DNA of 64,000 bases, taken from a virus (Duplodnaviria > Heunggongvirae > Uroviricota > Caudoviricetes). The DNA lies in IMG/VR virus record IMGVR_UViG_2703718862_000005; one strand, 5' to 3'. Positions within the stretch are counted from its first letter, which is position 1; every line of letters begins with the position of its first letter. Shown here in pieces: positions 34,401-37,400 of this stretch. The position numbers were made by a program.

Positions 34401-37400
34401 TGCATACAGTAGCGCGACAGGATGTGACTCACAGGCTGGACTGGATGTCAAGGATTAAGGCGACCCTAGGAATTAAGGAAGTATATATAAAGAGGGAGGA
34501 CCGGATGTGACTCACAGGCTGGACTGGATGTCAAGGACTAAAGACGCCTCAGGAATTAAGGAAGTATATATAAAGAGAGACCAGAGGCGACTCACAGTTA
34601 AACAGGAATGTCAAGAGGAGACCATAGGAATTTGGAGTACTGGAGTTAGGGAACCAGTTTAAATAAGACCACATACAGACTTAGAGTCTGACAGCCGAAG
34701 GCGAACCAGTGGGCCTATAGTCAGGAGGGATTATGATTATTATCACCCTCCCTAACTTCAGTCAGACTTCAGTGACCCAAGGTCTCAACCATCAAGCCGT
34801 ATATGGTCTCCACCTTGGGTCTTCCTACTTAAAGTAAAGCTGTCTTCAGCACCTCAGCCAGCCTACCAACAGCGTGTCCTTTCCCGTACAGGTCATACGT
34901 AATTGACTGACTGCTATGGCCTAAGATGCCCTGAGCGTCCACCAGATTGACTCCACGCTCTTTCATTCGGGTCGCCAGCCAATGCCTCAGACTATGGAGA
35001 GAAACGTTCTCAGCGTCTCCCAGTGCCTCAGTCAGGACCCTAGAGTTAAACCAGCTAGAGTAGGCGCTCGGAGTCATCCCGAAGAGAGGACCGCCGTCGT
35101 CAGGCTGCGTGTCTACCCATTCAAGGAAGGACTTCAGGTCGAACCCACAGGCCCCATCGGTCAGCGGTACAAGTCGGACTGAATGTTTGTTCTTCACAGA
35201 CTTACCGTCCCCATCTTCATTGATGTCGATGCAGGTTAAACCGTTGTCTAAGGTGACAATGTCACGTTTAGTCAGGTGGCAGACTTCAGCAGACCTCGCG
35301 CCAGTGACCACAGACACCAGAGACGCCCATCTACGGGCCTCAGAGGTCGTGTGAGCCGTGTGTCGTGTGAACTGATACTCAGACTCAACACGGACCAGAA
35401 GTCTCTCCAGCTCCTCGTCTGTGAACGCTCTGCGCTTGGAGTCGATATCCTTGGTCAGCTTCATCCGTTCAATAGGGTTGCGGCCCTCAAGTTGCCCATT
35501 CATCAGGCCATAATCAAGACACATCTTCGCCTTAGTCAGCAGCTTGTTGATTGTCGATGGTCTCACCTCAGCAGCCAGCATGGAGTCCCTGACAGCCAGC
35601 CACTCAGAGCGGGACATCAGGTCCATGTCTTCAGGTAAGAACCGAGAGACGGTATTCAGTGAGGACGACAGGTCCTTGTAGCTGGAGGACTTCAGGGTCT
35701 GGACCTTCTCAGCCAGCAGCGAGGACACTAGGCTTGAAAAAACCACAGATGGCTGACGCTCCTGTGTGAAAACTGCTGGTCTATCCCCCTGCTCATTCTT
35801 CAGAATTGACGTAGAGTCGCCTATAGTTGAGTAATCAGTATGGTTATTATCATCAATCAGCTTAATCAGACCAGAGGCATCACCAGTGTCTACCCTCTGC
35901 TGTGCTGCGGTCAGGACTTCAAGCGCTAACCTTATGCCCTTCTGCTGGTCCAGACTCAAGGCTTGCGTAGCGGCTAGCTCCTTCAGGTTGGACTTCTCGT
36001 CCACCAGAGTAGCGACCTCAAGTCCATTCCAGTAGTCATCACTGGCGTCTGTCAGGAACTGCTCAGCCATAGACCGGAGGTGGTCCGTAAGCTCCTGTAG
36101 CGAGACATCAGGCCTATCCAACATGAAGGACTTAGCTGTGGCTGCAAGCTCTCTCTGACGCATTGTGGCTACTCTCCTGTCTGTGCTTCGGGTCGATACT
36201 GAAAGAAACGGGATGGTCTGTCCCTTGAGTCTGAAGCGGATAGTATATCGACCATTGGCTCTACGGACTAACTGAGGCTTAGCTACGCTGAGTAGATTGA
36301 TTTGTGTCAGCCTTGTGTCAGGACTTGAGGTGCAGACTTGCTGATACAGATAGGGAGACCCAGAGAAAGAACTGGATGGATATACAGTATTATCATGGTT
36401 AATGTCAGTCATATCAGGACCTTAAGTAGCATTGAGTCAACTACTTCAAGTCCATCCATCCGTCTGACAATGGAGTCCATCTGGAACTACGCGGGAAATA
36501 CCCTCGTTAATCAGCATTCTGACATCAACAAAACGCATGAAATTCTGCAGGACGAATCGAAATGCGAAATGATTGTGGTCATCGAAAACTTTATGACCTC
36601 ATCGGCAAAATATGCCGACATTCTGCTGCCAGACCTGATGACCGTTGAGCAGGAAGATATTATTCCTAACGACTACGCCGGTAACATGGGATATCTCATT
36701 TTCCTCCAGCCTGTCACCAGCGAAAAATTCGAACGCAAACCGATTTACTGGATCCTGAGTGAAGTCGCGAAACGTCTTGGACCTGACGTCTATCAAAAGT
36801 TCACTGAAGGTCGCACGCAGGAACAATGGTTACAACATCTGTACGCCAAAATGCTTGCCAAAGATCCGGCGTTACCGTCTTACGACGAACTGAAAAAAAT
36901 GGGTATCTATAAGCGTAAAGATCCCAATGGTCATTTTGTCGCCTACAAAGCATTTCGTGACGACCCCGAGGCAAATCCACTTAAAACACCTTCCGGTAAG
37001 ATTGAAATTTATTCCAGCAAGCTGGCGGAAATTGCCCGTACCTGGGAACTGGAAAAAGATGAAGTGATAAGCCCACTGCCAGTTTATGCCTCTACCTTTG
37101 AAGGCTGGGACTCCCCTGAACGTAGAACCTTCCCACTGCAACTGTTTGGTTTCCATTACAAATCCCGTACTCACTCGACCTACGGCAATATTGATCTCCT
37201 GAAGGCTGCCTGCCGTCAGGAGGTGTGGATCAACCCTATAGATGCGCAGAAACGTGGGATTGCCAACGGCGATATGGTGCGGGTGTTTAACCATCGTGGC
37301 GAAGTTCGGCTACCAGCCAAAGTAACACCACGTATTCTCCCTGGAGTTAGCGCTATGGGCCAGGGAGCCTGGCACGAGGCCAATATGTCTGGCGATAAAA

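What the first reader, a model, noticed from the sequence alone, without database searches (positions are those of the whole stretch)
34421..34623. 83-bp tandem iterons with palindromic TGTGACTCACA cores beside promoter P1
About 2.5 nearly identical 83-bp units sit between the integrase 3' end and P1. Each has a near-palindrome (dimeric-protein site), an ATGTCAAGGA box and an AT-rich GTATATATAAAGAG block. GACTCACAG recurs again at ~33378. In T7 the primary origin combines phage promoters with an AT-rich segment, so this could be a helper-dependent origin, or an operator array for the KilA-N protein.
Basis: partly seen in the sequence, partly recalled or inferred. Interest (0 to 1): 0.6.

Follow-up and report, generated by a model that had tools for sequence, protein, structure and literature searches.

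The report
Repeat array in T7-type satellite island
A real 83-bp tandem repeat lies in a small E. coli island that carries T7-like phage promoters and packaging signals; it is most likely a docking array for the island's own first protein, not a KilA-N operator or a classic T7 origin.

Summary
The repeat is real. There are two full 83-bp units (34416-34581, about 90% identical) and a truncated third (34582-34637). They lie between the integrase 3' end and a genuine phage-RNA-polymerase promoter, P1. The array belongs to a ~6.64-kb island inserted in ynfE. That island has two Kayfunavirus-type promoters, a T7 gp6.7-like gene, a 28-38 bp element shared with ~155 T7-like phages near their right ends, and terminal-repeat-like sequences split by the att site. 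It therefore looks like a satellite of T7-like phages. Across 12 related loci, GACTCA(CAG) and TGTCAAG never vary and sit exactly 20 nt apart. The spacer between them keeps its length but changes sequence. A 27-bp AT-rich block recurs upstream of every homologue of the adjacent 122-aa gene, even in distant relatives. The array tracks that gene (81 versus 84 of 5426 E. coli genomes), not KilA-N and not the promoter type. It shows no promoter-like score, no RNA structure and no similarity to the helper-type phage genome. Best reading: a phased binding array for the helper-induced 122-aa protein, possibly starting replication of the island. The function is not proven. The KilA-N operator idea is rejected. 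The T7-origin architecture is not met.

The parts
34416..34498 (.). 83-bp repeat unit 1 (full)
   Evidence: Tandem Repeats Finder and the repeat finder; boundaries
34499..34581 (.). 83-bp repeat unit 2 (full, 89-91% identical to unit 1)
34582..34637 (.). Truncated, diverged unit 3. It keeps GACTCACAG and AATGTCAAG but lacks the AT block. A truncated unit like this closes the array in all 12 loci that carry the array.
34426..34434 (+). Box A, GACTCACAG (also at 34509-34517 and 34589-34597). GACTCA is invariant in all 25 distinct units.
34446..34452 (+). Box B, TGTCAAG (also at 34529-34535 and 34609-34615). It is invariant and always starts 20 nt after the start of box A. The spacer keeps its length but varies in sequence. 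These are the only three TGTCAAG in 29000-37000.
34468..34494 (+). Box C, the AT-rich block AGGAATTAAGGAAGTATATATAAAGAG (second copy at 34551-34577). It is the only part of the unit kept, as a single copy, upstream of the 122-aa gene homologue in distant relatives (L010, L029 Morganella, L030; degenerate in L031).
34365..34388 (-). P1, a Kayfunavirus-type phage RNA polymerase promoter (GACTTGATTATCACTATAGGGGAA). It fires leftwards into the 122-aa gene, away from the array.
   Evidence: Weight-matrix score 22.6 bits; phage promoter set
33967..34335 (-). 122-aa first gene, the proposed cognate binder. It is all-helical, has no Pfam family, and begins with an M-A-R-P / R-G-R-P motif that looks like an AT-hook.
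33936..33959 (-). P2, a strong phage-type promoter (CCCTAAACTATCACTATAGGGAGA). From position -15 to +10 it is identical to the promoter just upstream of the phiYIO1-1 major capsid gene.
34632..34673 (.). One copy of a second repeat family (~44-46 bp, TTGGAG...CAGTTTAAATAAGACCACA). It has 2 copies in L005 and L036 and 3 in L006, whose first gene is a 166-aa protein.
34714..34751 (+). Element shared with T7-like phages (hairpin GGAGGG-N16-CCCTCC). A stretch of 28-32 bp matches about 150 Kayfunavirus-type genomes. In phiYIO1-1 it lies about 100 bp downstream of the last promoter (the phiOR position), near the right genome end. It is a candidate pacB-type packaging signal.
34774..34821 (-). Hairpin immediately after the integrase stop codon. 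L005 carries compensatory changes (CCCAAGG/CCTTGGG becomes CACAAGG/CCTTGTG).
   Evidence: (I4)
34829..36412 (-). Tyrosine integrase
36344..36366 (-). Mimic of a terminal-repeat right boundary plus the ATCTGT pause motif (TCTCTGGGTCTCCCT|ATCTGTAT). It lies inside the 5' end of the integrase ORF.
   Evidence: score 52 against shuffles 18.2 +/- 2.2 versus the end of the phage Pisces terminal repeat
29969..30076 (-). Terminal-repeat-like interior and possible left boundary (GGACTCACAGTGGGACC ... CCCCATAGCCCGCCTCAAGTCCAGACC). It would join the 36344-36366 piece only after excision and circularisation.
   Evidence: score 50 against 19.8 +/- 2.2 versus the phage P1723 right end
29832..29841 (.). att core CATCTGGAAC (second copy at 36478-36487). 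The island-specific DNA is 29842-36477, inserted in ynfE.

Best explanation
The array is a recently duplicated, copy-number-variable cis element made of three phased protein-binding boxes. These are GACTCACAG, then TGTCAAG 20 nt later, then a 27-bp AT-rich block, repeating every 83 bp (about 8 helical turns).

I propose that the boxes bind the product of the adjacent first gene, a 122-aa helical protein with an AT-hook-like N-terminus. That gene is transcribed only when a Kayfunavirus-type helper phage brings its RNA polymerase to P1.

The proposed sequence of events is as follows. The helper infects. P1 and P2 fire. The 122-aa protein coats the array on one face of the DNA and opens or marks the AT-rich blocks. 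The helper's replication machinery is then loaded, so the ~6.64-kb island is amplified into concatemers. These are packaged through the neighbouring phage-derived signal (34714-34751) and the terminal-repeat mimic that forms across attP.

Shown here: the repeat; the conserved boxes with fixed spacing; linkage to the 122-aa gene; the phage-type promoters; the phage-derived packaging-like sequences. Inferred, not shown: binding by the 122-aa protein; a replication role; excision and packaging.
For: 1. Box conservation. In 32 units (25 distinct) from 12 loci, GACTCA and TGTCAAG are invariant and 20 nt apart. The spacer occurs as four different 10-mers of constant length: GCTGGACTGG, GTTGGACCGA, TTAAACAGGA and GAATAGGAGG. 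All three TGTCAAG in the island region lie in the array, at the same offset.

2. The AT block is conserved far beyond the E. coli clade. It lies upstream of every homologue of the 122-aa gene that I examined, at protein identities down to about 46-57%. Those islands use T3-type or T7-type promoters instead of the K1F type.

3. Co-occurrence. The array is in 81 E. coli genomes and the 122-aa gene in 84, of 5426. The two sibling islands fetched whose first gene is instead the larger 155/166-aa form (the 155-aa one is a distant homologue, hhalign 97.8%) lack the 83-bp units and carry a different repeat.

5. In phage ECO319P1, a homologue lies between the DNA polymerase and DNA ligase genes.

6. 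T7 phagemids need an origin, a pac site and a terminal repeat (PMC13236587, citing Chung and Hinkle 1990). Pac-like and repeat-like sequences are found elsewhere in the island. The origin is the function still without an assigned sequence.

7. The AT block of relative L009 resembles the AT-rich part of the T7 primary origin (score 32; 0 of 2000 local-composition shuffles reach it).
Against: There is no binding data.

The array and the 122-aa gene are adjacent, so their co-occurrence may simply reflect linkage.

The 122-aa protein has no initiator, primase or helicase domain and no characterised relative. Its similarity to DNA-binding folds is weak.

Distant relatives keep only one AT block, and one full unit plus the truncated one is enough in L004, L009, L021 and L037. 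Repetition is therefore not essential.

There is no long AT-rich unwinding region.

T7-type replication is not known to need a site-specific initiator protein (my own knowledge).

The 630-bp non-coding stretch downstream of the strong promoter P2 fits the T7 'promoter then AT-rich region' geometry better and could be the origin instead.

The window's own units are not significantly similar to the T7 origin.
Confidence: 0.35

Rival explanations
1. Packaging accessory site. The array helps recruit the helper terminase, directly or through the 122-aa protein acting as a specificity adaptor. It would work together with the adjacent phage-derived element at 34714-34751, much as repeated R sites flank the cut site in lambda cosB.
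For: The array ends about 75 bp from the only island sequence that is near-identical to helper-type phages, an element lying near their right ends.

GACTCACAG(T) resembles the conserved left genome end TCTCACAGT of phiYIO1-1 and Pisces. A copy sits at the start of the terminal-repeat-like region (30067, minus strand).

Unit 3, GAGACCAGAGGCGACTCACAGTT, resembles the phage junction GAGACCACA|TCTCACAGTT.
Against: The unit has no significant similarity to the phiYIO1-1 genome or to its concatemer junction.

Sibling islands L006 and L007 keep the phage-derived element but lack the 83-bp units. L007 also keeps the terminal-repeat-like left end; that part of L006 was not fetched.

The GACTCACAG copies point in both directions.

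Relative L009 lacks CTCACAG at the corresponding terminal-repeat-like position.

A shared 9-mer against a 40-nt target has a chance probability of roughly 0.06 by my estimate.
Confidence: 0.15
2. Transcriptional control region. The boxes would be operators through which the 122-aa protein (or Int) regulates its own promoter region, or blocks read-through from the integrase gene or from polymerases circling the excised element.
For: The layout is the classic one of a regulator gene with repeated sites just upstream of its promoter (27 bp from P1).

The repeat keeps the boxes in helical phase.

An AT-hook-like motif pairs naturally with an AT block.

The integrase is read towards the array and ends in a conserved hairpin.
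Against: Phage single-subunit polymerases need no activators and are normally blocked only by proteins bound downstream of the start site (my own knowledge). The array lies upstream of P1.

The gene is driven by a phage-type promoter, so the protein should be absent before infection. That rules it out as a maintenance repressor.

No sigma-70-type promoter is predicted in the array.
Confidence: 0.2
3. Functionless, unstable minisatellite. The array would be a recent slippage or unequal-crossover duplication of an intergenic stretch, with no role of its own.
For: Full-unit copy number varies from 1 to 2 among close relatives.

Internal segments are swapped between units in L034 and L035.

An 18-bp insertion occurs in several loci.

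A second repeat family nearby also varies from 1 to 3 copies.
Against: Invariant boxes alternate with variable spacers of fixed length.

The AT block is conserved in Morganella and other distant relatives.

Even if the duplication itself is neutral, the duplicated unit looks constrained.
Confidence: 0.12
4. Operator array for the KilA-N protein.
For: KilA-N is a DNA-binding domain (Pfam 1.3e-9). One extra GACTCACAG lies 74 nt upstream of the KilA-N start codon.
Against: The array is intact in islands with no KilA-N gene (L004 and L005 carry an HNH/AP2 gene instead).

The array is absent from L007, which has the identical KilA-N protein WP_000107258.

Only 4 of 5426 genomes have 80% or more of the region spanning the KilA-N gene start, the 122-aa gene and the array. 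The counts are 81 for the array and 22 for this KilA-N allele.
Confidence: 0.03

Closest known systems
PICMI (phage-inducible chromosomal minimalist islands of Vibrionaceae; PMC10803314)
   Same: Both are very small integrative islands (PICMI115 is 6.1 kb, this island about 6.64 kb). Both are tied to virulent phages and have no recognisable capsid-remodelling genes. PICMI is packaged as concatemers that fill a helper-sized head. Six copies of this island total about 39.8 kb, close to a Kayfunavirus genome.
   Different: PICMI integrates next to fis. [quoted passage not shown] This island sits in ynfE. It has phage-RNA-polymerase promoters, a T7 gp6.7-like gene and terminal-repeat/pac mimics of T7-like phages, and it has no recognisable replication gene. 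Nothing about mobilisation of this island has been shown.
Replication origins of SaPI/PICI satellites and iteron plasmids (short iterons flanking an AT-rich region, bound by the element's own initiator; my own knowledge)
   Same: Direct repeats in helical phase, an AT-rich core, and a position next to a gene for a small element-encoded protein that may bind DNA.
   Different: The unit here is 83 bp and composite, not 6-22 bp. There are only 1-2 full copies. No sub-periodicity is detectable inside a unit. The AT block is short. The neighbouring protein has no Rep, helicase or primase domain.
T7 primary origin and T7 phagemids (phage promoter followed by an AT-rich region; origin + pac + terminal repeat suffice for packaging; Chung and Hinkle 1990 as cited in PMC13236587 and PMC9860248)
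   Same: A phage-type promoter lies next to AT-rich DNA. The island also carries pac-like and terminal-repeat-like sequences, so all three phagemid requirements could be present. The L009 AT block resembles the AT-rich region of the T7 origin.
   Different: The AT-rich blocks lie upstream of P1 and are not transcribed from it. They are far shorter and less AT-rich than the T7 region. The window's own units show no significant similarity to it.
Terminase recognition arrays such as lambda cosB R sites (my own knowledge)
   Same: Repeated protein-binding boxes placed beside a packaging signal.
   Different: The array is missing from sibling islands that keep the packaging-like element. No terminase-like protein is encoded in the island.

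Membership tests
Iteron-type replication origin | Several (usually 3 or more) short direct repeats of about 17-22 bp in helical phase | tested here: not met
   The unit is 83 bp, with 2 full copies plus 1 truncated copy. Circular autocorrelation of a unit shows no sub-period (maximum z 2.3 against a 95% threshold of 3.12).
Iteron-type replication origin | Adjacent AT-rich unwinding element | tested here: inconclusive
   Each full unit has a 27-bp block at 74-78% AT. The array overall is 54% AT. Other 40-nt windows in the island are richer in AT.
Iteron-type replication origin | A cognate initiator protein encoded next to the repeats and binding them | tested here: inconclusive
   The adjacent 122-aa gene co-occurs with the array (81 versus 84 genomes). 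It has no Rep, primase or helicase domain. Binding cannot be tested here.
T7-type origin (phage promoter plus transcribed AT-rich region) | A promoter for the phage RNA polymerase | tested here: met
   P1 scores 22.6 bits and P2 33.8 bits against the phiYIO1-1 promoter matrix. No other site in the 64 kb scores above 12 bits.
T7-type origin (phage promoter plus transcribed AT-rich region) | The AT-rich region lies downstream of the promoter and is transcribed from it | tested here: not met
   The array starts 27 bp upstream of P1, which fires away from it. The best promoter score inside the array is 2.3 bits, within background.
T7-type origin (phage promoter plus transcribed AT-rich region) | Sequence relationship to a known T7-group origin | tested here: not met
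   Window units against the AT-rich region of the T7 primary origin give p = 0.12-0.16. Only relative L009 is significant.
KilA-N operator array | Sites co-occur with the gene for the protein that binds them | tested here: not met
   The array is present without KilA-N (L004, L005) and absent with the identical KilA-N (L007).
T7-group packaging signal (pacB / pacC / terminal repeat) | Similarity to sequences at the helper genome ends | tested here: not met
   For the array itself, there is no significant match to the phiYIO1-1 junction or genome, and BLAST against 50,697 phage records finds no unit match. The feature is met by the neighbours, not by the array: 34714-34751, 36344-36366 and 29969-30076.
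Phage satellite (for the island as a whole) | Integrase and att sites; helper-derived expression and packaging signals; no full virion gene set | tested here: met
   Integrase with 10-bp direct repeats in ynfE. Two helper-type promoters. A gp6.7-like gene at 39% identity to phiYIO1-1 gp33. Pac-like and terminal-repeat-like sequences. No terminase, portal or tail genes.
Phage satellite (for the island as a whole) | Induction, replication and transfer shown to depend on a helper phage | not testable with these tools
   No excised or packaged form was found. The attP junction is absent from IMG/VR. The stand-alone contigs examined are integrated copies with flanks.

The most novel reading that the evidence does not exclude
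The array is the helper-triggered replication or assembly site of an undescribed family of satellites of T7-like (Autographiviridae) phages. These ~6.64-kb islands would sense the helper purely through its RNA-polymerase promoters, swapping promoter type (K1F-, T3- or T7-like) between lineages. Each would carry a cognate pair of small DNA-binding protein and repeat array. Each would rebuild a phage-like terminal repeat and concatemer junction only when excision joins the two island ends across attP. Six copies would then fill one helper head.
Probability: 0.35. Interest if true: 0.8.

Novelty: new variant of a known kind. Interest (0 to 1): 0.55.

Why it matters
T7-like phages are strictly lytic model phages and are widely used in therapy and biotechnology. 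My six literature searches found no described satellite of T7-like phages.

If this island family is such a satellite, three things follow. It shows a new way for a mobile element to sense its helper, by carrying promoters for the helper's own RNA polymerase. It shows a new way to keep a packaging site silent until excision. And it supplies a compact natural 'phagemid' for T7-like phages.

The repeat array and its neighbouring 122-aa gene are the conserved pair with no known function. They are therefore the most direct handle for testing how such an element is amplified or packaged. The family is common, in about 140 of 5426 complete E. coli genomes, so it may affect the outcome of therapy with K1F-like phages.

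Tried and rejected
1. The AT block as a degenerate phage promoter on the plus strand (17 of 23 matches to P2). Rejected: the best matrix score in the array is 2.3 bits, within background.

2. The array as a copy of helper DNA. Rejected: local alignment to the whole phiYIO1-1 genome and to its junction is no better than shuffles. BLAST against phages finds only the neighbouring hairpin element.

3. A hidden 21-22 bp iteron periodicity inside the unit. Rejected.

4. A structured RNA. Rejected: z-scores are -1.06 and +0.25 and there is no Rfam match in the island.

5. A sigma-70 promoter in the array. None was predicted.

6. The T7 class II pause motif ATCTGT in the array. Absent there, but the search led to the terminal-repeat mimic inside the integrase 5' end.

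7. Integrase arm sites. TTGACTCAA occurs in both att arms and shares TGACTCA / GTCAAGGAC with the array. However, the arm site is kept in L007, which lacks the array. This is left as a weak lead only.

8. A known defence system. There is no PADLOC match apart from a weak KilA-N hit.

9. Function of the 122-aa protein by fold. Only weak matches in the PDB, and only uncharacterised phage proteins in the viral structure library. There is no sequence relative in the PDB.

10. The 331-aa protein as a capsid protein. The model was unusable (pLDDT 36.7) and there is no profile match to the helper major capsid protein. I make no claim.

11. Search for more relatives. A degenerate pattern over 185,579 species genomes gave only Shigella and Morganella as real hits. 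The bipartite box pattern in IMG/VR gave single chance hits, apart from one element whose encoded proteins are 98-100% identical to the window island's.

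Full report
**1. The observation**

The tandem repeat is real. Tandem Repeats Finder gives 34416-34577, period 83, 2.0 copies, 91% matches. The repeat finder gives two 82-nt copies at 89% identity and a weaker third start. I place unit 1 at 34416-34498, unit 2 at 34499-34581 and a truncated unit 3 at 34582-34637.

Each full unit carries three boxes. The first is TGTGACTCACAG. The second is ATGTCAAGGA, 20 nt further on. The third is a 27-bp AT-rich block, AGGAATTAAGGAAGTATATATAAAGAG. Unit 3 keeps only CGACTCACAG and AATGTCAAG.

GACTCACAG occurs seven times in the 64-kb window, against 0.34 expected from shuffles, and all seven lie inside one 6.6-kb island. The plus strand of the array is 65-67% purine.

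**2. The setting**

The array lies in an island inserted in ynfE. The 10-bp direct repeats CATCTGGAAC lie at 29832-29841 and 36478-36487, so the island-specific DNA is 29842-36477. All genes are on the minus strand:

- a tyrosine integrase (34829-36412);
- a 122-aa protein (33967-34335);
- a KilA-N protein (32548-33306);
- proteins of 55, 163 and 331 aa with no known function;
- a 79-aa homologue of the T7 gp6.7-type virion protein (39% identity to phiYIO1-1 gp33);
- two small proteins.

A weight matrix built from the nine promoters of the Kayfunavirus-type phage phiYIO1-1 finds exactly two sites above 12 bits in the window. Both are in the island and on the gene strand. P2 lies at 33936-33959 and scores 33.8 bits, equal to genuine phage promoters. 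P1 lies at 34365-34388 and scores 22.6 bits. P1 sits 27 bp from the array and fires away from it, into the 122-aa gene.

**3. Phage-derived packaging-like sequences**

The only part of 33300-34830 that matches any of 50,697 phage records is 34714-34751, a hairpin of the form GGAGGG-N16-CCCTCC. A stretch of 28-32 bp matches about 150 Kayfunavirus-type genomes. In phiYIO1-1 it lies about 100 bp downstream of the last promoter, between the HNH gene that follows the large terminase gene and the right genome end. A related hairpin lies in the same place in Foetvirus P1723.

Searching for the T7 pause motif ATCTGT led to a second feature. At 36344-36366 on the gene strand the island reads TCTCTGGGTCTCCCT|ATCTGTAT. 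This aligns with the end of the PhageTerm-annotated terminal repeat of phage Pisces and the sequence after it (score 52 against shuffles 18.2 +/- 2.2).

These two pieces become contiguous only across attP, that is, after excision. Published work states that T7 phagemids need a T7 origin, a pac site and a terminal repeat (PMC13236587), and that pac consists of PacB, recognised by gp18, and PacC, which is cut by gp19 (PMC9860248). The island length times six is about 39.8 kb, close to a Kayfunavirus genome.

Taken together, the island looks like a satellite of T7-like phages. My literature searches found no description of one. Excision, replication and packaging are inferred, not shown.

**4. 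Comparative anatomy of the array**

The island family occurs in about 140 of 5426 complete E. coli genomes. I compared the region between the integrase and P1 in 12 loci that carry the array.

- Full-unit copy number is 1 or 2, and a truncated unit always follows.
- In 25 distinct units, GACTCA and TGTCAAG never vary and their 20-nt offset is fixed.
- The 10-nt spacer occurs in four unrelated versions of constant length.
- The segment after TGTCAAGGA has two forms. These swap between units in L034 and L035, which points to recombination among units.
- The AT block is nearly invariant in full units.

Invariant boxes separated by variable spacers of fixed length are what protein-binding sites under selection look like. 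The 83-bp period is about eight helical turns, so equivalent boxes face the same side of the DNA.

**5. What the array travels with**

The array is found in 81 genomes and the 122-aa gene in 84. This KilA-N allele, at 80% coverage or more, is found in 22.

L004 and L005 have the array, but carry an HNH/AP2 gene where KilA-N would be. L007 has the identical KilA-N protein and no array. This rejects the KilA-N operator idea.

In L006 and L007 the first gene encodes a 166-aa or 155-aa protein. The 155-aa one is a distant homologue of the 122-aa family (hhalign 97.8%). Those islands carry 1-3 copies of a different ~46-bp repeat instead, of which the window has one copy at 34632-34673.

In more distant relatives the islands use T3-type or T7-type promoters, for example AATTAACCCTCACTAAAGGGAGA. 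These are L010, Morganella L029, L030 and L031, with protein identity of about 46-57%. There, only the AT block survives, as a single copy with consensus TCTCTTATATATACYTCCKTAAYTCC on the gene strand. It always lies 44-237 bp upstream of the homologue's start codon.

So the array follows the first gene, not the promoter specificity and not the second gene.

**6. The 122-aa protein**

It has no Pfam, PADLOC or PDB sequence match. About 35 cluster representatives exist in 1.84 billion proteins.

The family shares an N-terminal M-A-R-P / R-G-R-P motif that looks like an AT-hook, and a conserved W-x-D-D-V-x-x-G segment.

Homologues occur in larger podophages. In ECO319P1 the homologue lies between the DNA polymerase and DNA ligase genes.

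**7. What the array is not**

- It has no promoter-like score on either strand (best 2.3 bits).
- It has no predicted sigma-70 promoter.
- It has no significant RNA structure and no Rfam match.
- It has no sub-periodicity.
- It has no similarity to the phiYIO1-1 genome.
- It has no significant similarity to the T7 primary origin. Only the L009 block is similar, with 0 of 2000 shuffles reaching its score.
- Its AT-rich parts are short.

**8. Most likely mechanism**

I commit, at about 0.35, to the following. The array is a phased binding array for the 122-aa protein, which is made only when the helper polymerase reaches P1. The resulting protein-DNA complex at the AT blocks starts or promotes amplification of the excised island by the helper's replication machinery.

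The main arguments are these:

- the pattern of box conservation;
- the gene-array linkage, which holds across promoter types;
- the DNA-binding-like fold and AT-hook-like motif;
- the replication-module context of one phage homologue;
- the fact that pac-like and terminal-repeat-like functions are already accounted for elsewhere in the island.

The rivals are a packaging accessory site (0.15), a transcriptional control or insulator region (0.20), a functionless minisatellite built from a constrained unit (0.12) and a KilA-N operator (0.03).

The non-coding 630 bp downstream of P2 is an alternative candidate for a T7-style origin. This weakens the argument by elimination.

**9. Verdict**

The array is probably a protein-binding element, and the setting does look helper-dependent. 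KilA-N is excluded. The classic T7-origin architecture is not met.

The array itself is a new variant of a known kind, namely a repeat-type cis element of a satellite. The island family around it is the more novel result.

Noticed in passing
window 29842-36477: The whole island looks like an undescribed satellite of T7-like (Kayfunavirus) phages. It has two perfect helper-type promoters, a gp6.7-like gene and an integrase, and it sits in ynfE. Related islands elsewhere use T3-type or T7-type promoters (L010, L029, L030, L031). Six literature searches found no description.
   Followed up: partly
window 36344-36366 and 29969-30076 (minus strand): Phage terminal-repeat-like sequences are split by the att site. 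They include a mimic of the repeat's right boundary plus the ATCTGT pause motif, lying inside the 5' end of the integrase ORF. A concatemer-junction-like region would form only after excision.
   Followed up: partly
window 34714-34751: A hairpin element of 28-38 bp is shared almost exactly with about 150 T7-like phage genomes. In those phages it lies downstream of the last promoter, near the right genome end. Its orientation relative to the terminal-repeat-like region is inverted compared with the phage.
   Followed up: partly
window 29842-36487: The island length (about 6.64 kb) times six is about 39.8 kb, within 1-2% of Kayfunavirus genome sizes (39.5-40.5 kb). This fits packaging as six-copy concatemers, as reported for PICMI with eight copies.
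   Followed up: no
window 33307-33935: A 630-bp non-coding stretch lies between the strong promoter P2 and the KilA-N gene. It holds two 44-nt direct repeats (33438-33481 and 33634-33677, 95% identical, 196 nt apart) with an AT-rich core. It could be a T7-style origin or a processing region. Parts of it are missing in relatives that lack KilA-N.
   Followed up: no
window 34632-34673; L005, L006, L036: A second repeat family (~46 bp, ending CAGTTTAAATAAGAC) lies next to the 83-bp array. It has 1 copy here, 2 in L005 and L036, and 3 in L006. In L006 and L007 it accompanies the larger (155/166-aa) first-gene product.
   Followed up: partly
window 30067, 31737 (minus strand); 32213, 33380 (plus strand): Four further copies of GACTCACAG lie outside the array. 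One is 22 nt upstream of the 331-aa gene start and one is at the start of the terminal-repeat-like region. The motif resembles both the T7-group left genome end (TCTCACAG) and positions -11 to -5 of the T7 promoter (GACTCAC). Its meaning is unexplained.
   Followed up: partly
window 29883-29894 and 36429-36440: TTGACTCAATGC (read on the minus strand) occurs once in each att arm and is probably an integrase arm-type site. It shares TGACTCA and GTCAAGGAC with the array boxes. The site is kept in L007, which lacks the array.
   Followed up: partly
window 34774-34821: A hairpin lies directly after the integrase stop codon. L005 carries compensatory base changes, which suggests a conserved terminator or structural element.
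   Followed up: no
window 29898-29930 and 36302-36321: Short 11-12 bp periodic repeats (CTGACACAAAG type) flank the terminal-repeat-like region on both sides. They recall the short repeat arrays next to the T7 terminal repeat.
   Followed up: no
L004 5140-6231; L005 5140-6231: In sibling islands, a 363-aa HNH/AP2-type nuclease-like gene occupies the position that KilA-N holds here. It is possibly an anti-helper or homing function.
   Followed up: no
window 62917-63138: Tandem repeats with periods of 9, 45 and 63 bp, rich in GGACCTGC-type units, appear in the Tandem Repeats Finder output. They are possibly a collagen-like repeat in a prophage tail-fibre gene. I did not examine them.
   Followed up: no
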